Source: Rhodoglobus sp. (GTDB lineage: Bacteria > Actinomycetota > Actinomycetes > Actinomycetales > Microbacteriaceae). From it: 64,000 bases of DNA. A program made the translations under genes and the position numbers. A model generated the notes under the pieces. That model was not told where the DNA came from, did no database searches, and saw only the letters and a program-made list of their open reading frames with translations. Positions 52,478-64,000 of this stretch are shown piece by piece (the stretch's first letter is position 1; the number at the start of each line of letters is the position of its first letter). The stretch covers positions 2,393,724-2,457,723 of the forward strand of contig OZ245765.1 in the NCBI GenBank assembly GCA_965227655.1, written 5' to 3'.

Positions 52478-52891
52478 ATGCAAGCACTCGCAATTGACGA
52501 CCACGTCAGCACCAAGCTCTACGCGTGGTACACGTTCGTCTCCGCGTGGGTGCCGCCGGGGCAGAGCGCGCCCGGCATCTGCCAGGAGTGCGTCGAGTCC
52601 GCGCTCGCCTGCACCATCGACATCCAGGCCTGGCCGCACGATGTGATCCACGTGCTCGTGCAGTCGCTGCGCAGCGCCGTCCGCGACGTCCACGACTCCT
52701 ATTGCGAGGAGTTCCAATGGGACTGCACCTCCGCGCCGGATGTCGCCCATGCCGCCGTGCGCGACACGCTCATGCGCTACGCGCCCGACATCAACGACGT
52801 GCTCGACCAGTGCCTCACCGAGCGTCTCGAGACGTGGGTTGCCACCCAAGTCGATGACGACCTGGACCTCAGGCGCCTAGCGGCATCCTGA
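52478..52891 (+). CDS. Hypothetical protein with CxxC and HxxxH motifs
   Basis: W..W...WVP...CQEC...WPHDVIH; AGGAG RBS. Confidence 0.7.
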   Translation: MQALAIDDHVSTKLYAWYTFVSAWVPPGQSAPGICQECVESALACTIDIQAWPHDVIHVLVQSLRSAVRDVHDSYCEEFQWDCTSAPDVAHAAVRDTLMRYAPDINDVLDQCLTERLETWVATQVDDDLDLRRLAAS

Positions 52892-53240
52892 GCGGCCAGG
52901 CGCCATCCAGGATGACCTGGGTGGCTTCGCCGCTCGTGGCGTGCATGAGGATCGGCGCCATGAGGTTGGCCGAGGGCCCCGCGTCGTTGATGGTCGTGAC
53001 GACCAGGACGCGCACCTGCGAGGTCTCGGTGGCGCCGATGGATTCGAGCTGCTGCTCGCTGACCTCGGGGTTGTAGTCGGGCAGGTAGACGGGCGCGTCG
53101 ATGACGAACAGGCGGATGTCCGGAGCATCCAGTGACTGCAGCGTGTAGAGCCCGTCGGCGTCCGCGACGGGTGCCAGGTCGAAGTCGACGAGCGGCGAGA
53201 GGCCGGGGGGCGAGCTGATGAAGGTGACGAGGCCGGTCAT
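52869..53240 (-). CDS. fliW: Flagellar assembly factor FliW
   Basis: PPGL, LYTLQS, RLFVIDA..Y.PDY, SANLMAPI; follows flgL. Confidence 0.9.
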   Translation of the reverse strand: MTGLVTFISSPPGLSPLVDFDLAPVADADGLYTLQSLDAPDIRLFVIDAPVYLPDYNPEVSEQQLESIGATETSQVRVLVVTTINDAGPSANLMAPILMHATSGEATQVILDGAWPLRMPLGA

Positions 53241-54118
53241 GAGAGGAACGACATGAGTGTCGGCTGCAGCGCACGCGCGGTGACGGCGAGGGCAGTCTGG
53301 TAGGCGACCTCCTGTGACTTCAGTTCCAGGATCACCTTGCTCAAGTCGATATCCTCCACATCGGCTCGCTGGCTCTCCAGTGAGCCGGACTGTGCCATGT
53401 TCAGCTCCTTACTGGTCTCCAGTTGCGCGTACTTCGACCCCACACGCGATTGCTCTCCCAGTATGGACGAGAGGGCCCCGTCCACGGCGGTGAGATGAGT
53501 GCTGATATCCGTGCCCGCGCGCAGGTCGCTCGCGATCTGGTCGATGAGGGCGAAGGTCGAGGTGGCACCGGTACCGAACACGGTGGTGCCGTCGACATCG
53601 ACGCGCACGGTCGAGGTGGGGCTGATGCGGCGCTCGACGCCACTCGTGACGGCGTTGCTCGTGTAGGTGGAGGTGAAGGCCTCGGCGGCGTCGGAGTTGC
53701 CGGCGAACACCGAGCGGCCCGCGTACTTCGTGTTCGCCGTGGCGAGCAGCTGCTCCTTGAGGGAGTCGAGCTGGATGGCGATGGCCTCGCGTGACGCGGG
53801 GGAGAGCGATCCGGTGCTCGCGCCCTGCACGACGAGGTCGCGCACGGCCTGCATCGTGTCCGTCGCGTTCGAGAGCGCCGTGTCGGCAGTGCCGAGCCAC
53901 GACAGTCCGTCTTTGATGTTCGTGGAGAACTGCGTGAGCGCGCGCTGGTCGGCCCGGATGCGCAGGGACTCGCCGGCGCCAGCCGGATCGTCGGACGGCT
54001 TCGAGATGGACTTCTGCGTTCCTGCCTGGTTCTGGAGCTTGGCGAGCGTGGCCATGGAGGTCTGCAGGTTGCGCTGCGACGACTGCAGCAGCATCGAACT
54101 GGTGATTCTCTCAACCAT
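53237..54118 (-). CDS. flgL: Flagellar hook-associated protein 3
   Basis: Flagellin-like N-terminus KPSDDPAG, ANTKYAGRSVFAG, C-terminal YQTALAVTARALQPTLMSFL. Confidence 0.93.
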   Translation of the reverse strand: MVERITSSMLLQSSQRNLQTSMATLAKLQNQAGTQKSISKPSDDPAGAGESLRIRADQRALTQFSTNIKDGLSWLGTADTALSNATDTMQAVRDLVVQGASTGSLSPASREAIAIQLDSLKEQLLATANTKYAGRSVFAGNSDAAEAFTSTYTSNAVTSGVERRISPTSTVRVDVDGTTVFGTGATSTFALIDQIASDLRAGTDISTHLTAVDGALSSILGEQSRVGSKYAQLETSKELNMAQSGSLESQRADVEDIDLSKVILELKSQEVAYQTALAVTARALQPTLMSFLS

Positions 54119-54121
54119 CGG

Positions 54122-55543
54122 CTATCTCCCCACCACTCCGGTGCGATTGATGAGTGTGTCGAGCATCTCGTCGATCGCTGTCATCACTCTCGCAGCACCC
54201 TGGTACGCGTGCTGGTAGGTGATGAGCTGTGTCGTCTCCTCGTCCATGTCCACGCTCGTCTCCGAGAGCAGCTTCGCGCTCGCCGAGGAGGCGGCCTGGG
54301 TGGCTGTCGCAGCCTGGTCCGTGGACTTGCGGGTGTCGATGCCGACCCGTACGACGAACGACGACCACGAGGCATCCGGACCCGTTGCCGAAGAACCGAG
54401 GGCCGAGATGCGGTCGGCCAGGCTGCCGTCGAGGGCGCCCGCGCCGACCGTGCCCGTGGCGATGCCCGAGGCGTCGGTCGGGATGATCGAGAGGCCCAGG
54501 GCCGCGGGCTTGCTCGCGTCGATGGCGAAGAAGTTCAGGTTGGTGACTCCCGCGGTCGTCGCACCGGTCGAGTGGATCGCGTTCACCTGGGTGGCGAGCT
54601 GCGTCGCGAGGGCGTTGTACGTCTCCGCCGCCGAGACGATGCTGCCGCCACCGCTCGCGCTGCCGGGGCCGAGGGCCGCCACCGCTGCTGCGAGCGCGCC
54701 GCCCGAGAGCGCAGCGGAACTGCCGGGGCGGTTCGCCCACTCGAGCTGCACGGGGCTCGTGTTCGCGTCGCCCAGGAGCTGGGCGCCGGTGAGCACGAGC
54801 GTGTGGGTCTTGTTGCCGGTCACGAGCGGGTTTCCGCCGACGAGGACGTCGGCTGAGCCATCCGCCCGGTCGACGACGGTCGCGCCCGTGAGGTTCGCGA
54901 GGGTCGTCGTGAGCTGCGCGCGCTGGTCGAGCATCTCGTTGGGCGACTGGCCCGCGGCCGTGGCCTGGCGGATCTGATCGTTGAGGGCCGCGACCTGCGT
55001 GGCGATGGCGTTGACCTGGGTCACCATGCCCTGCGCCTGGCTGCGCGTGGTGGTGAAGGTGTCGACGGCGTCCTGATAGCCCTGGGCGAGCGCACTCGCG
55101 ACGCCGCTCGCGGCCTCGATGAGCACTCCGGATGCCGACGACTCGCCAGCGTGGTTGGAGACGTTGCCCCACGCGGCCCAGAAGTCGTGCAGCTTTGCGG
55201 CGAGGCCGTTGTCGCCCGGCTCGTGCAGCGAGGTCTCGATGGCGTTCTGCACGGTCGAGGTCATCTGGGCGTAGCCGCTGGAGGCCGACGACGTGCGAAC
55301 GCGGCTCTCGAGCAGCGCGTTGCCGAGGCGCTGGATCATGTCGACGGTGACGCCCGTGCCACCGCGGAAGAGGGTGTCGAGCGGGCCGATGCCCGCGAGG
55401 GAGCCGTTCGCCGACTGGCCCACCCGTTGGCGCGTGTAGCCCTCGGTGTTGACGTTGGCGATGTTCTGGCCGATGGTGTCGATGCCGGCGCGAGCGGCGG
55501 CGAGACCCGTGTACGCGGTGCTGAGCCCTCCGAAAGTGCTCAT
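54122..55543 (-). CDS. flgK: Flagellar hook-associated protein 1
   Basis: GQNIANVNTEGYTRQRV; VDMDEETTQLITYQHAYQGAARVM; start MSTFGG. Confidence 0.95.
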   Translation of the reverse strand: MSTFGGLSTAYTGLAAARAGIDTIGQNIANVNTEGYTRQRVGQSANGSLAGIGPLDTLFRGGTGVTVDMIQRLGNALLESRVRTSSASSGYAQMTSTVQNAIETSLHEPGDNGLAAKLHDFWAAWGNVSNHAGESSASGVLIEAASGVASALAQGYQDAVDTFTTTRSQAQGMVTQVNAIATQVAALNDQIRQATAAGQSPNEMLDQRAQLTTTLANLTGATVVDRADGSADVLVGGNPLVTGNKTHTLVLTGAQLLGDANTSPVQLEWANRPGSSAALSGGALAAAVAALGPGSASGGGSIVSAAETYNALATQLATQVNAIHSTGATTAGVTNLNFFAIDASKPAALGLSIIPTDASGIATGTVGAGALDGSLADRISALGSSATGPDASWSSFVVRVGIDTRKSTDQAATATQAASSASAKLLSETSVDMDEETTQLITYQHAYQGAARVMTAIDEMLDTLINRTGVVGR

Positions 55544-56025
55544 GCCTCGTTGTCCAGAAGTCGTGCGCGGGGGCTGGGGATGTCTGCGGCCCCTGTCGCG
55601 TCGTACGTTCCACTGTCGGTGACGATGTGGGCGAGGGTCTCCTGCGTCGAGCGGGAGGCGGCCCGCAGGAACTGCAGGTTGCTGTCGCGGAGCGCGGCGA
55701 TTCCGGCCGCGAGTTCGTTGAGGGCGTGCAGGTGAGACGTGAACGTCTCCTTCCACGCGGCCGACGGCGCGTGGGTGATGATCTCCTTGAGCGTCGCATC
55801 CTCGCTCGTGCCCCACTCGGTGGCGACCCCCGCGACCTCGAGCGAGCGCTCAAGGGCTGACTGGCGGAGGCGGCCGAGAACCTGCTCGACCTCGCGCGTG
55901 GCGAAAGGGAGCCACCGGGTTCGACCCGCGCTCAGAAGCAGCTGCTCCTCTTCGAGCTTGAACATGAGGAGTTCGAGCATCTCGCGCTCGCGCCACAGGA
56001 GCGCAGACAGTTCATGGGCTCCCAT
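55540..56025 (-). CDS. flgN: Flagellar export chaperone FlgN
   Basis: ELSALLWRERE.LELL.FKLEEEQLLL..GRTRWL; directly upstream of flgK. Confidence 0.85.
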   Translation of the reverse strand: MGAHELSALLWREREMLELLMFKLEEEQLLLSAGRTRWLPFATREVEQVLGRLRQSALERSLEVAGVATEWGTSEDATLKEIITHAPSAAWKETFTSHLHALNELAAGIAALRDSNLQFLRAASRSTQETLAHIVTDSGTYDATGAADIPSPRARLLDNEA

Positions 56026-56111
56026 GCGTGAGTGGTCTCCTTCCGGTTGCTCGGGGCTGACCCTCTCCGTTTCGATCTTCGCATAGAGCGTCCGATTGGG
56101 CATACAGAGAA

Positions 56112-56139
56112 CTGTCGGCAGCTTTTCGCGTCCCGTTAG
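56112..56139 (-). promoter_or_regulatory. Sigma-28 (FliA/WhiG/SigD)-type promoter of flgN-flgK-flgL-fliW
   Basis: Minus strand CTAAC-N16-CCGACAG. Confidence 0.7.
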
Positions 56140-56357
56140 TGGGAATTGATATATCACCTCACATAGGTGCGTGTCAGAGACGACACGCGCACCCGTTGTG
56201 GGGGGTGCGGGGGGTCGGATATACCCCACATAATTGTGAACTGTCACCGGCGAGGGCTTACCCAGCACCCACTCCTCGCTTGCGAACCCGACGAAATTAC
56301 CAAGCGTTCCCTGAGGGGACCGCGCAATGCATATCGGTGACTTCTGGGGAGCCCTCG

Positions 56358-57179
56358 GTGAATCGAGACCAACGCAACGCGCTTGTCGTGGAGAACCTGC
56401 CTTTGGTCGGGTATCTCGTCCGCGACCTCTGCGCGCGCGCGACACATCTTTCTCGCGACGACCTAGCCGCTGCCGGCGCCCTGGCCCTCGTGACATCGGC
56501 TGACGCCTACGACCCGTCCCTCGGTGTGCCCTTCGGCGCCTTCGCCCGCCGACGCATCATCGGCTCGTTCGCCGACACCATGCGCACGGATGACTGGGCG
56601 ACGCGCAGCGCTCGGCGCCGCATCCGGGAGACCCTCGCCGTTCAGGAGACGCTCACCGCCTCGCTCGGCCGCGTGCCGAGCGTCGACGAGATCGCCTCGA
56701 CCCTCGGCGTCGACAGGCAATCCGCGACGGATGCCCTCACCGACGCCTCGCGCACCATCAGCACCCTCGACGAGATCAACACCGACCTGCTGATCGCCGA
56801 CAACTCGACGCCCGAGGAGACGGTGATCACCCAAGAGCGCACGATCTTCGTCCGTTCCACCGTCGCTGCCCTTCCCGACGACATGCGCTACATCATCGAG
56901 CAGATCTACTTCGAGGAGCGCACGGTCAAGGAGATCGCCGAGGAGCTGGGATTCACCCACTCCGCGGTCTCGCAGAAGCGGTCGGAGGCTGTGCGCCTCA
57001 TCCGCGACGGCCTCACCACCCACTACGCGGAAGACGAGCGCGCCGCCGCTGTCGCCGCCGAATCGCGCATCGCCCCCGTGCGTCGCGCCGCATATCTTGC
57101 CCGTGTCGCCGAGTACGCCAAAGCCGGAATGGTTGACGGTCTCGTAGACACGGGTTGGGCGGAGTCAGCTGTCTCCTGA
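56358..57179 (+). CDS. fliA: FliA/WhiG family RNA polymerase sigma factor
   Basis: VENLPLV, DDLAAAGALAL, FGAFARRRIIG...DDWATRS, region-4 HTH TVKEIAEELGFTHSAVSQ; GTG start at 56358. Confidence 0.88.
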   Translation: MNRDQRNALVVENLPLVGYLVRDLCARATHLSRDDLAAAGALALVTSADAYDPSLGVPFGAFARRRIIGSFADTMRTDDWATRSARRRIRETLAVQETLTASLGRVPSVDEIASTLGVDRQSATDALTDASRTISTLDEINTDLLIADNSTPEETVITQERTIFVRSTVAALPDDMRYIIEQIYFEERTVKEIAEELGFTHSAVSQKRSEAVRLIRDGLTTHYAEDERAAAVAAESRIAPVRRAAYLARVAEYAKAGMVDGLVDTGWAESAVS

Positions 57180-57199
57180 CCCCCCTTTCGGGTCGAAAG

Positions 57200-57227
57200 C
57201 TAACCAGTAACACCGAGCAACCGAATG
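57200..57227 (+). promoter_or_regulatory. Sigma-28-type promoter of flagellin
   Basis: CTAAC-N16-CCGAATG. Confidence 0.7.
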
Positions 57228-57232
57228 TCAAC

Positions 57233-57280
57233 AGTGCCGGACCACGGATGGACCGGCGCACTAAGCCCACATCACGGAGG
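57233..57280 (+). promoter_or_regulatory. Two CsrA-like binding sites in the flagellin 5' UTR
   Basis: CACGGATG at the apex of hairpin 57233-57262; CACGGAGG overlapping the Shine-Dalgarno at 57273-57280. Confidence 0.6.
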
Positions 57281-57288
57281 AAATCACC

Positions 57289-58437
57289 ATGGGTATGTCA
57301 ATCAACACCAACATCGCGGCGAACAACTCGTACCGCAACCTCACGAACACGCAGAACGACCTGTCCAAGTCGCTGGAGAAGCTCTCCAGCGGTCTTCGCA
57401 TCAACCGCGCAGCGGATGACGCAGCAGGCCTCGCGATCTCTGAGGGCCTCAAGTCGCAGGTCGGTGGCCTCACGGTCGCCTCCCGCAACGCCCAGGACGG
57501 CATCTCGGTCATCCAGACCGCTGAAGGCTCGCTCTCCGAGGTCCACACCATCCTGCAGCGCGTTCGTGACCTGGCCGTCCAGGCCGGTAACGACTCGAAC
57601 AACGCAACGTCGCGCGCCGCGATCACCACCGAGGTGTCCGCGCTCACGACCGAGCTCGGTCGTATCGCTTCCGCCACGGACTTCAACGGCACCAAGCTGC
57701 TCGACGGCTCGGCTTCGGCACTGAGCTTCCAGGTCGGCGCGAACGGCGATGCGGCCAGCCGCATCTCGGTCAACCTCACCAACATCGCCGGTCTGGCCGC
57801 GGGCCTCACCACCGGCGGCGCTGGCGCGAAGTTCGACGTGCTCACCCCGACCGACGTCACGGGCGCCCAGGCGTTCACCGTCACGGACGGCACCACCGAC
57901 ACGACCATCAGCGTTACGCTCGGCGCTGCCGGCACGTACAAGACGGTCCAGGATGTGGCCAGCGCCCTCAACGCCGACACCGGCTTCAAGGGCAAGCTCA
58001 ACGCGACGGTCAACCAGAACAACCAGCTCGTCGTGAGCGCGCTCTCGGGCGGTGCTGTCGTCGGTGGCTCGACCGCGGGTACGGACGCCTCGTCCGGTAC
58101 CGGTACGGGCACCTCCTCGGCTGTTGCCGGTGGCGTGCTCAACTTCACCAACGCGACCACGTCCGCCGCCGCCATCACGGCGATCGACGCTCGTATCGCC
58201 TCGGTGTCGACCGCTCGCGCCGACCTCGGTGCACAGCAGAACCGTTTCGAGAGCGTCATCCGCAACCTGGCAGTCTCGAAGGAGAACCTGTCGGCGGCCG
58301 GCTCGCGCATCCGCGACACGGACATGGCTGAGGAAATGGTCAAGTACACGCGTGCCAACATCCTGCAGCAGGCTGGCACCGCGATGCTGGCGCAGGCCAA
58401 CCAGAGCACCTCTGGCATCCTGCAGCTCCTGCGCTAG
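57289..58437 (+). CDS. fliC: Flagellin
   Basis: LEKLSSGLRINRAADDAAGL, RNAQDGIS.IQTAEG, GAQQNRFE, SRIRDTDMAEEM, AMLAQAN. Confidence 0.98.
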   Translation: MGMSINTNIAANNSYRNLTNTQNDLSKSLEKLSSGLRINRAADDAAGLAISEGLKSQVGGLTVASRNAQDGISVIQTAEGSLSEVHTILQRVRDLAVQAGNDSNNATSRAAITTEVSALTTELGRIASATDFNGTKLLDGSASALSFQVGANGDAASRISVNLTNIAGLAAGLTTGGAGAKFDVLTPTDVTGAQAFTVTDGTTDTTISVTLGAAGTYKTVQDVASALNADTGFKGKLNATVNQNNQLVVSALSGGAVVGGSTAGTDASSGTGTGTSSAVAGGVLNFTNATTSAAAITAIDARIASVSTARADLGAQQNRFESVIRNLAVSKENLSAAGSRIRDTDMAEEMVKYTRANILQQAGTAMLAQANQSTSGILQLLR

Positions 58438-58476
58438 TCCCAGTCGCACTAACTGAACTGATCTAACGCACATCCT

Positions 58477-58523
58477 CCGGTGGTGGCGGTGAAGGGCCCA
58501 AGAACCCTTCGCCGTCACCCCGG
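58477..58523 (+). terminator. Strong hairpin between fliC and fliD (terminator or 3' stabiliser)
   Basis: GGTGGCGGTGAAGGG / CCCTTCGCCGTCACC with G-U pairs, flanked by CCGG. Confidence 0.6.
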
Positions 58524-58553
58524 TGGGTGGCTACCCCACCAGGAGAGGACACC

Positions 58554-59939
58554 ATGGGATCGCTAGCTATCGACGGGCTCGTCAGCGGCCTCCAGACCAC
58601 GGACCTCATCAACAACCTCATGTCGATCGAGGCGGCGCCCCAGACGCTCCTCAAAGCGAAAGCCTCGACAACCCAGAGCCTCGTCTCCGCGTTCCAGAGC
58701 CTCAACACCTCTGTCGCCTCCCTTGCCTCCTTTGCCAAGAAGACAGCACTGCCCGCCTCGGTCGACCTCTTCACCGCGACCTCGAGCGCCTCGAGCGTGC
58801 TCGCCACCGCGGCATCCGGTGCCTCGGTCGGCCAGATCGACCTGAGCGTGACCTCCGTCGCCAAATCGCAAGTCTCCGTCTCCGCTGCCATGTCGCAGTG
58901 GGCAGACAGCCCCGCGACCTTCACGATCGTCAAGGCCGACGGCACCAAAGTCGAGATCACCGCCGCATCCACGTCGATGTCGGACATCGCGGATGCCATC
59001 AACTCCTCATCCGCGGGCGTCAAAGCCGCACGCGTCGCCGCGGGCACGAACGGCACCGACCCGCTCTACCGCCTCCAGCTCACGTCGAGCACGACGGGAG
59101 CGGCCAGTGCGTTCCAGGTCTTCCGCGGCTCGGCCGCCGACGTCACCGCGGGCACCGCTCCCAACCTGCTCACCGAGACGGGGGCCGCCACTGTCGCGAC
59201 CGCGAGCGACGCGTCGGTCACACTGTGGGCCGGCACTGCCGCCGAGCAGGTCATCACGTCCTCGACGAACGCGTTCACCGACATCCTGCCCGGCGTCACG
59301 ATCAACGTCTCCAAGGTTGAGACCTCGCCCGTGACGATCAGCGTCGCGAAGGATACCGCGGGCATCAGCGCCCTCGCGTCCAACCTCGTGGCAAACCTCG
59401 GCGTGGTCTTCAACTTCATCGACAGCAAGTCGACGGTCACGCCCACGACCTCGTCGACGGGCCAGGCCGGCACCTCCGCGGGGGTGTTCACCGGCAACAG
59501 CACGGCGCGTGACGTGAAGGCGCGCATCATGACGGCGGCCTCGGCCCCCGTCGACGGACGCTCGCCCTCCGAGATCGGCATCTCGATCACCAAGGACGGC
59601 ACCATCGAGTACGACGCGACCAAGTTCGCCGCCGCCCTCGCCGCGGACCCTGCCAAGACGCAGGCGATGCTCCAGACCATCTCCGACCGCGTGGCCACGG
59701 CCGCGGACTCGGCGTCGAACCAGTACACGGGCTCGATCACGCAGGTCATCACGGGCCAGCAGTCGTCGCTCAAATCGCTCGGCGACCAGATCAGCGACTG
59801 GGATGTGCGGCTTGCCTCCCAGCGCACGGGCCTCGAGCGCGTCTACTCGGCGCTCGAAGTCTCGCTCAGCAACCTTCAGGCACAATCCAGCTGGCTGACC
59901 TCACAGCTCGCTGCACTCTCATCGGGGACCAGCTCATGA
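58554..59939 (+). CDS. fliD: Flagellar filament cap protein
   Basis: GLVSGLQTTDLINNLM; PSEIGISITKDGTIEYD; LERVYSALEVSLSNLQAQSSWL. Confidence 0.95.
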   Translation: MGSLAIDGLVSGLQTTDLINNLMSIEAAPQTLLKAKASTTQSLVSAFQSLNTSVASLASFAKKTALPASVDLFTATSSASSVLATAASGASVGQIDLSVTSVAKSQVSVSAAMSQWADSPATFTIVKADGTKVEITAASTSMSDIADAINSSSAGVKAARVAAGTNGTDPLYRLQLTSSTTGAASAFQVFRGSAADVTAGTAPNLLTETGAATVATASDASVTLWAGTAAEQVITSSTNAFTDILPGVTINVSKVETSPVTISVAKDTAGISALASNLVANLGVVFNFIDSKSTVTPTTSSTGQAGTSAGVFTGNSTARDVKARIMTAASAPVDGRSPSEIGISITKDGTIEYDATKFAAALAADPAKTQAMLQTISDRVATAADSASNQYTGSITQVITGQQSSLKSLGDQISDWDVRLASQRTGLERVYSALEVSLSNLQAQSSWLTSQLAALSSGTSS

Positions 59940-60376
59940 CCATGACACAGGACCCGCGCCTCGCGCGGGCGCAGTACAACCAGGATGCGATCCTCTCGGC
60001 ATCGCCCAACCGGTTGCTCACGATGCTGTTCGACAGGCTCATGCTCGACCTGCAGCGCGCGGAGGCCGCGCAGTCCGAGCAGGACTGGAACCGGGCATCC
60101 GGCTACCTCATCCACGCTCAGGACATCGTCGCGGAGCTCGCCGGCACGCTCGACGTGGAGCGTTGGGATGGCGGCCAGAACCTGCTCGCCATCTACCTGT
60201 TCTCGTCGACGAAGCTCGTGAGCGCCAACGTCGAGCACTCGATCGAGCGCACGCGCGAGGTCATCACGATCATGGAGCCGCTGCGCCAGACCTGGCACGA
60301 AGCCGCGGCCATCGTCGCGGCGCAGTCGAGCGCGCAGTACACGGGCAGCAGCACGGGCGAGCTCGGCTTTGCCTGA
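59936..60376 (+). CDS. fliS: Flagellar export chaperone FliS
   Basis: ASPNRLLTMLFDRL, HAQDIVAEL..TLD...W.GGQNL..IY, PLRQTWHEA. Confidence 0.93.
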   Translation: MTMTQDPRLARAQYNQDAILSASPNRLLTMLFDRLMLDLQRAEAAQSEQDWNRASGYLIHAQDIVAELAGTLDVERWDGGQNLLAIYLFSSTKLVSANVEHSIERTREVITIMEPLRQTWHEAAAIVAAQSSAQYTGSSTGELGFA

Positions 60377-60674
60377 TCGCGAGGAGATCAACGCCTCTTG
60401 GCGCATGATCCTGGGCGAGCTGGAAACGGATCTCGCCCGCCTCAGCTCGGGCGACGGGGGCCGTATCGCCTCCGCAGACTGGTCGCCGCCCACCATCGTC
60501 GGGCCGCTGCCGGACGAGTACGCCCACACCGTGCGCGACCTCATCGAGCGCCAGCGCCTCGCCCTCGAGGCCCTCGAGGAGGAGCGTCGCCGAACGGGCG
60601 AGCACCTCTCCGCCGTGAAGGCCGCGGAGCCCGCGCGCGGCCACCAGCCCGCGTACCTCGACGTCGAAGGCTGA
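60369..60674 (+). CDS. Hypothetical flagellar protein in the fliT position
   Basis: Overlaps fliS; helical; W..ILGELE.DL...WSPP...GPLP...AYLD. Confidence 0.7.
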   Translation: MPDREEINASWRMILGELETDLARLSSGDGGRIASADWSPPTIVGPLPDEYAHTVRDLIERQRLALEALEEERRRTGEHLSAVKAAEPARGHQPAYLDVEG

Positions 60675-60705
60675 AGCTGAAGCTGAGGTCTTTTTTCTCA
60701 AACTT

Positions 60706-60733
60706 CTAACGGCGCTGACGAAACCGCCGATAG
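60706..60733 (+). promoter_or_regulatory. Sigma-28-type promoter of the flgB operon
   Basis: CTAAC-N16-CCGATAG. Confidence 0.7.
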
Positions 60734-60741
60734 GTACAACA

Positions 60742-60780
60742 GAGCACGGATAGCTCGATATCACCGGCCACGGATTGGCC
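60742..60780 (+). promoter_or_regulatory. Two hairpins with ACGGA at the apex (CsrA-like) in the flgB leader
   Basis: GAGC-ACGGATA-GCTC and GGCCA-CGGAT-TGGCC. Confidence 0.55.
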
Positions 60781-60812
60781 TTTCCTTCACACGTACGTAG
60801 GGAACGCAATCC

Positions 60813-61154
60813 GTGTTCGATTCGGTAACCATGAATGCACTCACCAGTGCACTGGATGGTCTTTCCGCGCGCCAGCGTGCGATCGCGAACAACATCGCGA
60901 ACGTGAACACCCCCGGATACCACGCGCAGCGTGTCTCGTTCGAAGAGGCCCTCGCGAAGTCCGTGAAAGAGGGAAGCGGCGACGTCGCCCCGACCACGAA
61001 GAGCTCCCTCGACCCCACGCGCCTCGACGGCAACAACGTCAACCTCGACACCGAGACCCTCTCGAACATCGACACGGTCCTGCGCTTCCAGTTCGCGTCG
61101 AACGCGACGAGCGCCCAGTTCAACTACGTCCGCGCAGCCCTGGGAGGCAACTGA
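60813..61154 (+). CDS. flgB: Flagellar basal-body rod protein FlgB
   Basis: RQRAIANNIANVNTPGY, DGNNVNLDTE. Confidence 0.95.
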   Translation: MFDSVTMNALTSALDGLSARQRAIANNIANVNTPGYHAQRVSFEEALAKSVKEGSGDVAPTTKSSLDPTRLDGNNVNLDTETLSNIDTVLRFQFASNATSAQFNYVRAALGGN

Positions 61155-61546
61155 TGGCTACTGACGCGATCGCGATCGCCGGCACCGCACTCACGGTGCA
61201 CCGTAAATGGCTCGACGCCATCTCGGACAACATCGCCAACGTCAACACCGTCCGTTCGACGAACGAGGAGGCCTTCAAGGCCCACTACGTCATCGCGCGC
61301 GCCGGCGAGGGAACCACGGGCGTCTACGTCGAAGGCGGTGCGTACTCCAACTCGGAGGGCCGCATGGTCTACGAGCCCGACCATCCCCTCGCCGACGAGA
61401 AGGGCTACGTGCGCTACCCCGACATCGACCTCGGCCAGCAGATGGGCGACCTCATCATGGCCCAGCGCGGCTACGAGGCCAACGCCGCCGTCGTCGACCG
61501 CGCGAAGACCGCCTACGAGGCAGCGATCCAGATCGGCAGCCGCTAG
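61154..61546 (+). CDS. flgC: Flagellar basal-body rod protein FlgC
   Basis: DNIANVNT, YEPDHPLADEKGYVRYPDID, AQRGYEAN. Confidence 0.95.
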   Translation: MATDAIAIAGTALTVHRKWLDAISDNIANVNTVRSTNEEAFKAHYVIARAGEGTTGVYVEGGAYSNSEGRMVYEPDHPLADEKGYVRYPDIDLGQQMGDLIMAQRGYEANAAVVDRAKTAYEAAIQIGSR

Positions 61547-61845
61547 TGGTCCTCCCCGTCACCGCCGTCTCCGGCGTCGCCCCCAGCCAGTACCTCACCG
61601 GTGCGCAGCAGACTTCCGGCACCACCACCGACTTCGGTTCGGTGTTCGCGGGCGCCGTCGACAACCTGCAGCAGCTCCAGTCGACCTCGGACACCCTCGC
61701 GGTCAAGGCCGTCACGGGTGACCTCAACGACATCCATCAGGCCACCATCGCCGCCACGCGCGCGCAGGTGACCATGGAGGTCGTCGCCGCCGTCCGCAAC
61801 AAGGGCGTCGAGGCGTTCAACGAGATCATGAGAATGCAGGCCTGA
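61546..61845 (+). CDS. fliE: Flagellar hook-basal body protein FliE
   Basis: GDLNDIHQATIA...VRNKGVEAFNEIMRMQ; GTG start overlapping the flgC stop. Confidence 0.92.
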   Translation: MVLPVTAVSGVAPSQYLTGAQQTSGTTTDFGSVFAGAVDNLQQLQSTSDTLAVKAVTGDLNDIHQATIAATRAQVTMEVVAAVRNKGVEAFNEIMRMQA

Positions 61846-63485
61846 TGCCCAAGGAAGTCTCCGCCGCGTTCGGCCGGATCACCCACGCACTGCGGGAGTT
61901 CACTGTCGGCCAGCGCACCATCGCGATCATCGGCGTCGCCGTGCTCGTGGTCGGCGCCGTGGCGCTGGGCGCCTGGTTTACCCGTTCGACCTACTCCCCG
62001 TTGTTCTCGGGCCTCAGCGGCTCCGACGCGAGCGCGATCGTCGACCAGCTCGACGCCGACGGTGTCGCGTACCAGCTCACCGACGGCGGCCAGACCATCC
62101 TCGTGCCCGACTCCGAGGTCAATTCGGCCCGCCTCAAGGCCGCGGCCGCAGGCCTTCCGAGCCTCGACAACGGCGGCTACGCGCTTCTCGACGCCATGGG
62201 CGTCACGGCGTCCGAGTTCCAGCAGGATGTCACGTACAAGCGCGCGATCGAGGGCGAGCTCGCCTCCACCATCGAGTCGATCAAGGGTGTTCGCACCGCG
62301 TCGGTGAAGCTCGCCATCCCCGAGCAGTCGGTGTTCGTCTCGGAGAAGCAGGACCCGACGGCCTCCGTGTTCGTCGACACCGAGTCGGGCGTCACGCTCA
62401 GCACCGACCAGGTGCAGGCCATCACCCACCTCACCGCGGCATCCGTCGACGGCCTCACCCCCGAGAACGTCTCCGTGGTCTCCGCCGACGGCACCGTGCT
62501 CTCCGCGGTCGGGACCGGCACGACGGGCAACTCCGACCAGCAGGCCTCCACCTACGAGGATCGCGTGCGCTCGGCGGTGCAGGCGATGCTCGACCGCGTC
62601 GTCGGCGTCGGCAACGCCACGGTCGTCGTGGCCGCGAGCATGAGCCTGCAGTCCGGTCAGCGGGTCGAGGAGACCTTCACGACCCCCGAGGGCGAGCCCG
62701 CCCTGCAGGAGTCGACAACCAAACAGGACTACGCGGGAACGGGCTCCGGCACGGGCACGGGTGTTCTCGGCGCCGACAGCATCGCGGTTCCCACCGATAC
62801 CACCACGGGCGGCGACGGCACGTACACGAACGAGACGTCGAACCGCACCAACGCCATCAACAAGGTGACCGAGACCACGCAGATCCCCGCGGGCCAGGTC
62901 GAGCGCCAGACCGTCTCGGTCGCCGTCGACAAAGATGCAGCGGCCGGGATGAACGCGGCAACACTCGAGGGACTGGTCGCCGCCGCGGCGGGCATCAACG
63001 AAGACCGCGGCGACGCCGTCAAGGTCGAGCTCGTGAGCTTCGCGAAGGTGGACAGCGGCACCGCCGCCAGTGCCCTCGAGGAGGCCCGCGCGTCGGAGCT
63101 GCAGAGCAGCATCACCAAGATCATCACGACCGCCGTCCCTGTGGCGGGCGCGATCATCGTGCTAATCATCCTCATGAGCGGCATCCGCGGATACCGCAAG
63201 CGCAAGGAGAAGCAGGACGCGAAGGACCTCGGCGAGATGACCCAGGTGCGCGACGGCCTCGAAGCAAGCCAGGCCCAGGCGCTCGACGCCGCTGCCGCGG
63301 CGGGACTGCTGCCGCCCACCCAGCCTCTCGTCGCCGGCCCCTCGGCATTCGCCGAGTTCGGCCCCGATCTCGACGAGCCCGGTGTCGAGCGCATGCGCCA
63401 GGAGATCGACAGTCTCGCGGCCCAGAGCCCCGAGCGCATGGCCGAGCACCTGCGCAGCCTCATGGATGACAGGAGTCGTGCGTGA
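61845..63485 (+). CDS. fliF: Flagellar MS-ring protein
   Basis: YSPLFSGL..SDASAIV..L, GYALLD..GVTASEFQQ, IEGELASTI, two TM. Confidence 0.95.
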   Translation: MPKEVSAAFGRITHALREFTVGQRTIAIIGVAVLVVGAVALGAWFTRSTYSPLFSGLSGSDASAIVDQLDADGVAYQLTDGGQTILVPDSEVNSARLKAAAAGLPSLDNGGYALLDAMGVTASEFQQDVTYKRAIEGELASTIESIKGVRTASVKLAIPEQSVFVSEKQDPTASVFVDTESGVTLSTDQVQAITHLTAASVDGLTPENVSVVSADGTVLSAVGTGTTGNSDQQASTYEDRVRSAVQAMLDRVVGVGNATVVVAASMSLQSGQRVEETFTTPEGEPALQESTTKQDYAGTGSGTGTGVLGADSIAVPTDTTTGGDGTYTNETSNRTNAINKVTETTQIPAGQVERQTVSVAVDKDAAAGMNAATLEGLVAAAAGINEDRGDAVKVELVSFAKVDSGTAASALEEARASELQSSITKIITTAVPVAGAIIVLIILMSGIRGYRKRKEKQDAKDLGEMTQVRDGLEASQAQALDAAAAAGLLPPTQPLVAGPSAFAEFGPDLDEPGVERMRQEIDSLAAQSPERMAEHLRSLMDDRSRA

Positions 63486-64000
63486 GCACGATGACCGGCA
63501 TCGAGACTGCCGCCCTCGTCATCATGCAGATGTCGCAGGGGCACGCAGCTCAGGTGATGCGCCAGTTCTCAGAGGCCGAGGCCGAGGAGATCGCCGCGGA
63601 GATCATCCGCCTGCGCAAAGTCGAAGACGGCCACGCCGAGGCCGCGATAACGGAATTCCACGCTCGTACCCGAAGCGGGCGTGCGGATACCAAGGGAGGC
63701 CGCGACGCCGCGGCACTCCTCCTCGAGAGCGCGTTCGGGGAGGAGCGCGCAGCGGGCCTCATGGACCGCGCCGCCTCCGCTGCCGGGGGCTCGTTCGAGT
63801 TCATGGACACCGTCGACCCCTCGCACGTTGCCCGTGTCCTCGATGGCGAAGCCCCCGGCACCGTCGCCCTCGTTCTTGCGCACCTGCGCCCCGAGGTGGC
63901 CTCGCACGTGCTCGGAACCTTCAGCACGAGCATCCGGGCCGACATCGCCCAGGCCCTCGCCACCATGGGCACCCCCAATGCCGAGATCGTCGAGATCGTT
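63482..64000 (+). CDS. fliG: Flagellar motor switch protein FliG (5' part, runs off the window)
   Basis: Manual translation from GTG 63482: MTGIETAALVIMQM...AEEIAAEIIRL...GGRDAAALLLESAFGEERA...FEFMD; follows fliF. Confidence 0.9.
   Translation, partial: MSTMTGIETAALVIMQMSQGHAAQVMRQFSEAEAEEIAAEIIRLRKVEDGHAEAAITEFHARTRSGRADTKGGRDAAALLLESAFGEERAAGLMDRAASAAGGSFEFMDTVDPSHVARVLDGEAPGTVALVLAHLRPEVASHVLGTFSTSIRADIAQALATMGTPNAEIVEIV

What the first reader, a model, noticed from the sequence alone, without database searches (positions are those of the whole stretch)
56112..60733. One promoter signature (CTAAC-N16-CCGA) precedes both late flagellar genes and the basal-body operon
Seen: three identically spaced copies, upstream of flgN (minus, 56112-56139), fliC (57200-57227) and flgB (60706-60733). 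Known: this matches the sigma-28 family consensus (B. subtilis SigD CTAAA-N16-CCGAT). In the enteric hierarchy flgB-fliF-fliG are class II genes transcribed before sigma-28 is released. Inference: the adjacent FliA/WhiG-like sigma may drive early and late genes alike, a flattened hierarchy. No flgM is visible in this window.
Basis: partly seen in the sequence, partly recalled or inferred. Interest (0 to 1): 0.62.

Follow-up and report, generated by a model that had tools for sequence, protein, structure and literature searches.

The report
Sigma-28 promoters before every flagellar operon
A motile actinobacterium of the Microbacteriaceae carries the same flagellar sigma-factor promoter in front of all five of its flagellar operons, early and late. 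The signal is real and conserved, but this one-tier wiring has already been shown in Actinoplanes and predicted in other actinobacteria.

Summary
CTAAC-N16-CCGA occurs three times in the window against 0.12 expected. It occurs eight times in the 3.3-Mb genome. Five of those lie in the flagellar cluster, one per intergenic gap, each pointing into an operon: flgN-flgK-flgL-fliW, fliC-fliD-fliS, flgB to flgE, flbD-motAB, and fliM to csrA.

With at most one mismatch the box is present before flgB in 29 of 29 relatives, before fliC in 33 of 33, and before flgN in 33 of 36. It is never found before the sigma gene (0 of 39). A sigma-28-type box sits about 100 nt before flgB in many families of the class.

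The adjacent sigma is the genome's only FliA/WhiG-like factor. It lacks the c-di-GMP and RsiG contact residues, so it is WhiG1-like. No FlgM is detectable.

It is not new. In Actinoplanes missouriensis all flagellar units use FliA promoters, and Denis et al. 2026 predicted such sites across actinobacterial clusters.

No transcript data could be obtained. Verdict: a new member of a known kind, of low to moderate interest.

The parts
56112..56139 (-). P_flgN. The -35 box CTAAC is at 56139-56135, followed by a 16-nt spacer and the -10 box GCCGACAG at 56119-56112. The predicted start of transcription is near 56105, giving a leader of about 80 nt to the flgN ATG at 56025.
   Evidence: Exact match. 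It has the highest PWM score in the genome, 29.8. It is conserved in 33 of 36 relatives with at most one mismatch.
55540..56025 (-). flgN, the first gene of the flgN-flgK-flgL-fliW unit. flgK is at 54122-55537, flgL at 53237-54118 and fliW at 52869-53240.
   Evidence: Pfam FlgN, FlgK_D1, Flagellin_N/C and FliW.
56358..57179 (+). Gene for the flagellar sigma factor (FliA/WhiG1-like, 273 aa). The start is GTG at 56358. Residues about 221-273 form a conserved C-terminal tail.
   Evidence: Pfam sigma-70 regions 2, 3 and 4. The best NCBIfam match is FliA_WhiG at 124 bits, below the curated cut-off. The best solved-structure matches are FliA (1RP3, 6PMI). The start codon and ribosome-binding site are conserved. 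No sigma-28 box lies upstream in any of 39 relatives.
57200..57228 (+). P_fliC. The -35 box CTAAC is at 57200-57204, followed by a 16-nt spacer and the -10 box ACCGAATG at 57220-57227. It has the lowest PWM score of the five sites.
   Evidence: Exact match. PWM score 15.3. It lies at a fixed position of -88/-90 in 33 of 33 relatives with at most one mismatch.
57289..60674 (+). The fliC unit: fliC 57289-58437, fliD 58554-59939, fliS 59936-60376 and orf101 60369-60674. A strong hairpin lies between fliC and fliD, at about 58470-58530.
   Evidence: Pfam. The hairpin folds at -57.5 kcal/mol with z = -4.6.
60706..60734 (+). P_flgB. The -35 box CTAAC is at 60706-60710, followed by a 16-nt spacer and the -10 box GCCGATAG at 60726-60733. 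The predicted start of transcription is near 60741, giving a leader of about 72 nt to the GTG at 60813.
   Evidence: Exact match. PWM score 26.3. Present in 29 of 29 relatives with at most one mismatch. The invariant alignment columns are the two boxes and the leader hairpins. Class-wide, the box starts at -125 to -95 in 21 of 30 genomes, against 0.017 expected per window.
60813..64000 (+). Start of the basal-body operon: flgB 60813-61154, flgC 61154-61546, fliE 61543-61845, fliF 61845-63485 and fliG from 63482. The operon continues beyond the window to flgE.
   Evidence: Pfam. For the continuation.

Best explanation
The three boxes belong to a set of five promoters read by the flagellar sigma factor encoded next to them. 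That factor is sigma-28 of the FliA/WhiG1 type. Its region 4 would read CTAAC at -35. Regions 2 and 3 would read (G)CCGA(T/C)AG at -10, 16 nt downstream.

Each of the five flagellar transcription units starts with one box:
- flgN-flgK-flgL-fliW
- fliC(-fliD-fliS-orf101)
- flgB to flgE
- flbD-motA-motB
- fliM to flhA-csrA

Basal-body, motor, export, hook, junction and filament genes are therefore all switched on by the same holoenzyme.

The sigma gene has no such box. It must be started by another promoter and regulator, which gives two tiers: an unknown input drives the sigma gene, and the sigma drives everything else.

There is no FlgM, so there is no hook-basal-body secretion checkpoint acting on transcription. 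Any ordering is more likely to come from promoter strength and from post-transcriptional control. fliC has the lowest-scoring box, and CsrA-FliW-type sites lie in the fliC and flgB leaders.

Shown here: the motif, its statistics, its positions, its conservation, the identity of the sigma, and the absence of FlgM. Inferred: that the sigma actually initiates at these sites and that no second promoter serves flgB.
For: - Three matches in the window against 0.12 expected.
- Eight matches genome-wide, five of them in the flagellar cluster, all in intergenic gaps and all in sense orientation.
- A PWM built from 71 sites in relatives finds six genome hits at score >= 14. These are the five flagellar sites and one antisense site inside a gene.
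- Conservation with at most one mismatch: flgB 29 of 29, fliC 33 of 33, flgN 33 of 36, against 2.4% of random windows. The spacers diverge while the boxes stay fixed.
- The P_flgB / P_flbD / P_fliM trio recurs in most of the other families sampled. In 9 of the 14 genomes examined all three genes carry a box with at most one mismatch to the core. Outside this lineage the -35 is CTCA(G/A).
- The sigma's top hits are the FliA_WhiG family and FliA structures, and the DW..RS.RR segment is shared with FliA and WhiG.
- The only other strong match to the FliA_WhiG model in the genome lies in a 477-aa frame, which I take (untested) to be the principal sigma.
- There is no FlgM.
- There is no sigma-70-like promoter in 55900-61000.
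- Literature: in A. missouriensis all flagellar genes are under FliA1/FliA2 promoters, and loss of fliQ does not change their transcripts (PMC13083903, citing Jang 2016 and Hashiguchi 2020). Multiple WhiG boxes have been predicted inside actinobacterial flagellar clusters, where FlgM is absent (PMC13595943).
Against: - There are no transcription start site, RNA-seq or mutant data for this organism or its relatives.
- The sigma scores below the curated FliA_WhiG cut-off, 124 against 189.6 bits.
- Actinobacterial housekeeping promoters have weak -35 boxes. A TANNNT-type SigA promoter for flgB cannot be excluded by the E. coli-type scan.
- No clear terminator separates orf101 from P_flgB, so read-through from the fliC unit may add to flgB transcription.
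- P_fliC departs from the consensus at a highly conserved position (CCGAATG instead of CCGATAG).
Confidence: 0.8

Rival explanations
1. Dual-promoter arrangement as in Bacillus subtilis fla/che. An unrecognised housekeeping (SigA) promoter would give the first basal-body transcripts. The sigma-28 box before flgB would only add feedback amplification, so a real early/late order would persist.
For: B. subtilis flgB has both a sigma-A and a sigma-D promoter (PMC2245950). Actinobacterial SigA promoters are hard to recognise. The sigma-70 scan uses the E. coli consensus.
Against: - Only 31 nt separate the orf101 stop codon from the -35 box.
- The 29-genome alignment shows no conserved block upstream of the box.
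- The sigma gene lies outside the flgB operon, so the B. subtilis feed-forward logic does not apply.
- In Actinoplanes the early units depend on FliA (PMC13083903).
Confidence: 0.12
2. The box is read by something other than the adjacent sigma, either another alternative sigma or a DNA-binding regulator. The resemblance to sigma-28 promoters would be coincidental.
For: The sigma is divergent and scores below the curated family cut-off. No biochemical link was tested.
Against: - The two-block geometry, with a fixed 16-nt spacer and a fixed distance to the start codons, is that of a promoter.
- The -10 core GCCGA is the family hallmark.
- The genome has no other FliA/WhiG-like sigma.
- Two related genomes whose cluster-linked sigma is only 32-35% identical carry a shifted -35 box, GTTAC.
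Confidence: 0.05
3. Chance recurrence of a short motif in GC-rich DNA.
For: The pattern specifies only nine bases. Simple base composition would allow some genome-wide hits, and three non-flagellar hits exist.
Against: - Five hits fall in 28 kb where about 0.05 are expected.
- All lie in intergenic gaps and all are in sense orientation.
- The boxes are conserved across dozens of genomes while the spacers drift.
Confidence: 0.01

Closest known systems
FliA1/FliA2 (WhiG1-clade) flagellar regulon of Actinoplanes missouriensis (Jang et al. 2016; Hashiguchi et al. 2020, as summarised in PMC13083903 and PMC13595943)
   Same: A sigma-28-type promoter precedes every flagellar transcription unit, including the basal-body and export genes. 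There is no FlgM. There is no transcriptional checkpoint tied to hook-basal-body completion. The sigma is encoded with or near the cluster.
   Different: - There is one sigma here instead of three or four paralogues.
- There are five transcription units instead of eleven.
- The -35 box is CTAAC rather than CTCA.
- This is a unicellular motile rod lineage, not a zoospore former.
- The sigma gene is not itself preceded by the box.
- The upstream activator (TcrA in Actinoplanes) is unidentified here.
Predicted WhiG1/WhiG2 promoters in actinobacterial flagellar clusters (Denis et al. 2026, PMC13595943)
   Same: The consensus is the same: -35 xT(C/A)Ax and -10 GCCGA. Several sites occur per cluster. 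The sigma lacks the RsiG and c-di-GMP contact residues.
   Different: Microbacteriaceae and Micrococcaceae are not named in that paper's main text. That paper interprets the sigma's role as mainly late-stage. Here the early operons are the best-scoring and best-conserved sites.
Bacillus subtilis SigD regulon and the fla/che operon
   Same: The promoter consensus is almost identical (TAAA-N15-GCCGATAT). A sigma-D promoter also exists upstream of flgB. FliW and CsrA are present.
   Different: In B. subtilis, sigD lies inside the flgB operon, which is driven mainly by sigma-A with SwrA-DegU. FlgM is present there. Here the sigma is a separate upstream gene and FlgM is absent.
Enteric three-tier hierarchy (FlhDC, then class II including fliA/flgM, then class III)
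   Same: The late genes fliC and flgK-flgL use a sigma-28 promoter.
   Different: flgB, fliF, fliM and flhA operons are sigma-70/FlhDC class II there. Here they carry the sigma-28 box. The FlgM secretion checkpoint is missing here.

Membership tests
Sigma-28 (FliA/SigD/WhiG)-dependent promoter | Two blocks, TAAA-like at -35 and GCCGATAA-like at -10, with about 15 nt between TAAx and GCCGA | tested here: met
   The sequence is CTAAC-N16-CCGA, which equals TAAC-N15-(G/A)CCGA. The PWM consensus is CTAAC(G)-N16-(T/G)GCCGA(T/C)AG.
Sigma-28 (FliA/SigD/WhiG)-dependent promoter | Lies upstream of motility genes, in sense orientation, at promoter distance | tested here: met
   All five sites lie in intergenic gaps, 48-107 nt before flgN, fliC, flgB, flbD and fliM.
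Sigma-28 (FliA/SigD/WhiG)-dependent promoter | Transcription starts about 7 nt downstream of the -10 box and depends on the sigma | not testable with these tools
No transcription start site data are available.
FliA/WhiG sigma family (for the adjacent gene) | A group-3 sigma with regions 2, 3 and 4 that matches the family model | tested here: inconclusive
   Regions 2, 3 and 4 are present. TIGR02479 is the best family, but at 124 bits against a cut-off of 189.6. The best solved relatives are FliA 1RP3 and 6PMI at E of about 1e-19.
WhiG1 clade (flagellar, RsiG-independent; Denis et al. 2026) | Encoded in or near the flagellar cluster | tested here: met
   The gene lies between flgN and fliC. This synteny is kept in 36 relatives.
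WhiG1 clade (flagellar, RsiG-independent; Denis et al. 2026) | Lacks the WhiG2 residues that contact c-di-GMP (K57, G61, R62) and RsiG (T235, L236, E240, L242) | tested here: met
   In the alignment to S. venezuelae WhiG (6PFV_A) the corresponding residues are G, R, D and E, Q, E, R. That is 0 of 3 and 1 of 4 kept.
WhiG1 clade (flagellar, RsiG-independent; Denis et al. 2026) | Falls inside the WhiG1 branch of the published tree | not tested
   No tree was built with the paper's reference set. Its supplements are not held.
One-tier FliA regulon of the Actinoplanes type | Every flagellar transcription unit carries the FliA-type promoter | tested here: met
   Five of five units do. The only gaps of 50 nt or more without a box are the sigma gene's own upstream region and the fliC-fliD hairpin.
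One-tier FliA regulon of the Actinoplanes type | Flagellar transcripts are unaffected by loss of the export apparatus | not testable with these tools
   This needs a fliQ, fliP or flhA mutant and RNA measurements.
FlgM-gated hierarchy (enteric bacteria, Bacillus) | The anti-sigma FlgM is encoded in the genome | tested here: not met
   A six-frame search of the whole genome with Pfam PF04316 gives no match at E <= 10.
B. subtilis fla/che dual-promoter design | The sigma gene lies inside the flgB operon, and a sigma-A promoter precedes flgB | tested here: not met
   The sigma is a separate gene 3.6 kb upstream. No sigma-70-like site and no conserved extra block precede flgB. A weak SigA promoter cannot be excluded.

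The most novel reading that the evidence does not exclude
In Microbacteriaceae, Micrococcaceae and perhaps all flagellated Actinomycetes, the missing FlgM checkpoint may be replaced by one or both of two features seen here.

(a) CsrA-FliW may act on both the basal-body operon and flagellin. The flgB leader carries twin hairpins with A(C/U)GGA in the loop. They are conserved in all 29 relatives aligned and recur in two further families of the class. The fliC leader has the two-site Hag-like layout.

(b) The WhiG1-type sigma carries a conserved C-terminal helix, ...SRIAPxRRxAYLARxA..., with the class-wide form G(C/V)xARRxxAY(Y/F)A. It is absent from solved FliA and WhiG2 proteins. It could be the docking or auto-inhibitory site for the still unknown regulator of WhiG1.
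Probability: 0.2. Interest if true: 0.65.

Novelty: new member of a known kind. Interest (0 to 1): 0.3.

Why it matters
This extends the experimentally established Actinoplanes design to ordinary unicellular motile actinobacteria: Rhodoglobus, Salinibacterium, Leifsonia, Cryobacterium, and Arthrobacter relatives. In that design one FliA-type sigma drives early and late flagellar genes and there is no FlgM.

It also shows that the promoter before flgB is an old, class-wide feature.

It gives a clean, minimal regulon of five promoters and one sigma. The sigma gene lies outside its own regulon. That would be a convenient system for asking how flagellar assembly order is kept without FlgM, and what controls WhiG1-type sigmas. 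Denis et al. 2026 state both as open questions.

As a discovery in itself it is confirmatory.

Tried and rejected
- Jang et al. 2016 (PMC4966450) is not held. The supplements of Denis et al. are not held. I therefore could not check whether Microbacteriaceae were in their target tables.
- Sigma-70-type promoter scan of 55900-61000: no sites.
- Rfam scan of the same region at E <= 1: nothing, so there is no known riboswitch or leader family.
- FlgM search: nothing.
- A terminator between orf101 and P_flgB: only an insignificant fold, z = -0.9.
- The three exact hits outside the cluster (397001-, 513053-, 2934237+) and the PWM hit at 1263695 were set aside as not flagellar. 397001, 513053 and 1263695 lie inside or antisense to coding sequence. 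2934237 was not examined closely.
- Autoregulation of the sigma gene: rejected. The best match upstream has at least three mismatches in all 39 relatives.
- The idea that 'no motif' relatives had lost the promoter: rejected. They carry one-mismatch variants, CTTAC or TCGATAG, at the same position.
- AlphaFold of the sigma gives a moderately confident helix in the tail (pLDDT 74-81 for residues 231-250; pTM 0.38). The tool does not report contacts, so docking of the tail could not be judged.
Full report
**Observation**

A pattern search finds exactly three copies of CTAAC-N16-CCGA in the 64-kb window. They lie at 56115-56139 (-), 57200-57224 (+) and 60706-60730 (+). Dinucleotide-preserving shuffles expect 0.12, and none of 100 shuffles reached three.

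Read with their flanks the sites are:
- CTAAC-N15-GCCGACAGT
- CTAAC-N15-ACCGAATGT
- CTAAC-N15-GCCGATAGG

These have the spacing and -10 core of the sigma-28 consensus TAAA-N15-GCCGATAA (the consensus is established knowledge).

Pfam confirms the genes:
- flgN 55540-56025 (-), followed by flgK, flgL and fliW
- a sigma-70-family gene with regions 2, 3 and 4; its start is GTG at 56358, fixed by a conserved GGGGAG-N7-GTGAAT
- fliC, fliD, fliS and an unassigned 101-aa ORF
- flgB, flgC, fliE, fliF and fliG

**Extension to the genome**

The window is part of a single 3.306-Mb contig with 67.7% G+C. The exact pattern occurs only eight times in the genome. Five copies lie within the roughly 28-kb flagellar cluster.

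The two copies beyond the window are at genome 2464103 and 2466081. The first lies in the gap between flgE and flbD-motA-motB. The second lies in the gap between motB and fliM-fliN-fliOPQR-flhBA-orf289-csrA. Those genes are confirmed.

The cluster has six intergenic gaps of 50 nt or more. Five of them hold one box each, in sense orientation. The sixth, between fliC and fliD, holds a very stable hairpin instead (-57.5 kcal/mol, z = -4.6).

The three remaining genome hits have no flagellar context. Two lie inside open reading frames. The third, 2934237 (+), was not examined closely.

I built a position weight matrix from 71 sites in relatives. Its consensus is CTAAC(G)-N16(17)-(T/G)GCCGA(T/C)AG(T/C). 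At score >= 14 it gives six hits in the genome: the five flagellar sites and one antisense site inside a gene. By this test the regulon is confined to the flagellar cluster.

**Conservation**

The sigma protein retrieved 40 loci. They come from Rhodoglobus, Salinibacterium, Leifsonia, Cryobacterium, Curtobacterium and other Microbacteriaceae, and from Arthrobacter and Pseudarthrobacter. The order flgK-flgN / sigma-fliC-fliD-fliS-(orf101)-flgB-flgC is kept.

I allowed at most one mismatch to the eleven specified positions of CTAAC-N15-17-CCGAnAG. The results:
- flgB: 29 of 29
- fliC: 33 of 33
- flgN: 33 of 36
- random windows from the same loci: 2.4%

The one-mismatch variants are CTTAC at -35 or TCGATAG at -10. 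They sit at the same distance from the start codon.

I aligned the flgB upstream region of 29 genomes. The invariant columns are the -35 box, the -10 box, two leader hairpins and the start codon. The spacer and everything upstream of the -35 box drift freely. This is a clean phylogenetic footprint of one promoter, with no second conserved promoter-like block.

Among 401 genomes sampled from the class, 60 have flgB. In 21 of the 30 best, a relaxed box (xT[ACT]Ax-N15-17-CCGA) starts between -125 and -95 from flgB. The expectation is 0.017 per window. Most of the rest carry GACGA or GTTAC variants at the same place.

I also examined 14 genomes from about ten families. In 9 of them a box with at most one mismatch to the core precedes all three of flgB, flbD and fliM. 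In a tenth, only flgB could be scored and it carries the box. Outside this lineage the -35 box is CTCA(G/A).

**The sigma**

Its best NCBIfam family is FliA_WhiG. The score is 124 bits, which is below the curated cut-off of 189.6. Its best solved relatives are FliA from Aquifex (1RP3) and E. coli (6PMI). The DW..RS.RR segment at the junction of regions 2 and 3 is shared with them.

The only other strong match to the FliA_WhiG model in the genome lies in a 477-aa frame. I take this to be the principal sigma, but I did not test it.

I compared the sigma with S. venezuelae WhiG (6PFV_A). The three c-di-GMP-contacting residues K57, G61 and R62 are G, R and D here. Of the four RsiG-contacting residues only E240 is kept. 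By the criteria of Denis et al. 2026 (PMC13595943) this is a WhiG1-type sigma, meaning flagellar and RsiG-independent.

No FlgM is detectable anywhere in the genome. This agrees with the reported loss of FlgM from most actinobacterial clusters (PMC10746217, PMC13595943).

**The sigma gene is outside its own regulon**

In none of 39 relatives does the 220 nt upstream of the sigma gene contain a box with fewer than three mismatches. The cascade therefore has two tiers. An unidentified promoter and regulator start the sigma gene, and the sigma starts everything else.

The flgN-sigma spacer holds other conserved elements. Close relatives share a G-rich inverted repeat. Others carry ACCCGA-like repeats. 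A NarL-type response regulator lies just beyond fliW. I did not pursue these.

**How it probably works**

The holoenzyme carrying this sigma initiates at all five boxes. Basal-body, export, motor, hook, junction and filament genes are then transcribed together. There is no FlgM, so there is no secretion-coupled transcriptional checkpoint.

Three features could still order assembly:
1. Promoter quality differs. P_flgN, P_fliM and P_flgB score 26-30, while P_flbD scores 18 and P_fliC scores 15. P_fliC has a conserved CCGAATG variant in the closest relatives.
2. FliW and CsrA are both encoded. csrA lies at the far end of the cluster.
3. The fliC leader has a GGA-loop hairpin plus an ACGGAGGA overlapping the ribosome-binding site. 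The flgB leader has twin hairpins, GAGC-ACGGAU-GCUC and GGCC-ACGGAUC-GGCC. These are conserved in all relatives examined and recur in two other families.

These three points are inferences.

**Comparison with what is known**

In Actinoplanes missouriensis the flagellar genes form 11 transcription units. All are under FliA1- and FliA2-recognised promoters. Loss of FliQ does not alter their transcripts, so the enteric-type checkpoint is absent (PMC13083903, citing Jang et al. 2016 and Hashiguchi et al. 2020).

Denis et al. 2026 searched actinobacterial genomes with -35 xT(C/A)Ax and -10 GCCGA. They report several predicted sites inside flagellar clusters of Actinoplanes, Cellulomonas and Geodermatophilus. 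They note that the anti-sigma of WhiG1 is unknown (PMC13595943).

In B. subtilis a sigma-D promoter also lies upstream of flgB, but it sits beside the main sigma-A promoter (PMC2245950).

What is specific here:
- the lineage, Microbacteriaceae and Micrococcaceae, which is not named in the main text of that paper
- the CTAAC form of the -35 box
- the small number of units, five
- the absence of autoregulation

Several earlier follow-ups of this scan reached the same verdict for other actinobacterial genomes. I reached mine independently of them, from the literature and my own comparisons, and list them only as agreeing.

**Verdict**

It is a new member of a known kind. Interest is 0.3.

The more interesting leads are side observations. 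They are the class-wide C-terminal helix on WhiG1-type sigmas and the CsrA-type twin hairpins in the flgB leader.

Noticed in passing
window 57018-57176 (sigma residues about 221-273): The sigma has a tail of about 50 aa after region 4.2. It carries a conserved motif, SRIAPxRRxAYLAR(V/L)A, present in the Microbacteriaceae and Micrococcaceae relatives aligned. Homologues at about 40% identity in many families of the class keep a related G(C/V)xARRxxAY(Y/F)A segment. Alignments to solved FliA and S. venezuelae WhiG stop at residues 217-220. AlphaFold predicts a helix at 240-265 (pLDDT 74-81 for residues 231-250). The tail is not mentioned in Denis et al. 2026. It is a possible regulatory or docking element of WhiG1 sigmas.
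   Followed up: partly
window 60742-60780: The flgB leader has twin hairpins, GAGC-ACGGAUA-GCUC and GGCC-ACGGAUU-GGCC, with A(C/U)GGA in the loops. Their columns are invariant or nearly so in 29 aligned genomes. They are also present in two other families (f5, f40). They look like CsrA sites on the basal-body operon.
   Followed up: partly
window 57233-57288: The fliC leader has a hairpin with ACGGAUGG at its apex and ACGGAGGA overlapping the ribosome-binding site. Both are conserved in all relatives. This is the two-site layout of the B. subtilis hag leader.
   Followed up: partly
L119:16987-17253 (genome 2473987-2474253) and L119:17272-19053: csrA is not next to fliW. It is the last gene of the fliM-flhA unit, about 27 kb away. 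Nineteen nt downstream starts a PilB-like T2SSE ATPase with an MshEN domain. A pilus gene may therefore be co-transcribed with the flagellar unit.
   Followed up: partly
window 56140-56357: The flgN-sigma spacer has no sigma-28 box. It has a G-rich inverted repeat (TGTGGGGGGT...ACCCCCCA) and a block TTGTGAAyTGTCACCGGyGAGGGCTTACCCAG conserved in the closest relatives. More distant relatives carry 3-5 direct CACCCGA-like repeats or GTCC...GGAC palindromes. These are candidate operator sites for whatever controls the sigma gene.
   Followed up: partly
window 58470-58530: A very stable GC-rich hairpin without a U-tract lies between fliC and fliD (-57.5 kcal/mol, z = -4.6). It is probably an attenuator or terminator that sets the fliC:fliD ratio.
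   Followed up: no
sigma residues 200-206 (window about 56955-56975): The region 4.2 recognition helix reads THSAVSQ in every Microbacteriaceae and Micrococcaceae sigma aligned. In the other families, and in FliA and WhiG, it reads TESR(V/I)SQ. This coincides with the -35 box being CTAAC in the first group and CTCA(G/A) in the other actinobacterial families. It is a single lineage event, so it is only weak evidence of co-variation.
   Followed up: partly
L043/L075 (G272) and L047/L079 (G190), upstream of flgB: Two genomes of the same family have a cluster-linked sigma that is only 32-35% identical and whose alignment ends at residues 227-231, before the tail. They carry GTTAC-N16/17-C(C/G)CGATAGT before flgB. 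The leader hairpins are kept.
   Followed up: partly
L119:3539-4174 (genome 2460539-2461174): An NlpC/P60-domain protein is encoded inside the flgB-flgE operon between fliJ and the hook genes. It may be the peptidoglycan hydrolase for rod passage in a cluster that lacks FlgJ.
   Followed up: no
window 60369-60674 and L119:16108-16977: Two conserved cluster ORFs have no Pfam family. One is a 101-aa ORF in the fliT position after fliS, which also has no NCBIfam match. The other is a 289-aa ORF between flhA and csrA, in the position where FlhF or FlhG-type genes often lie.
   Followed up: no
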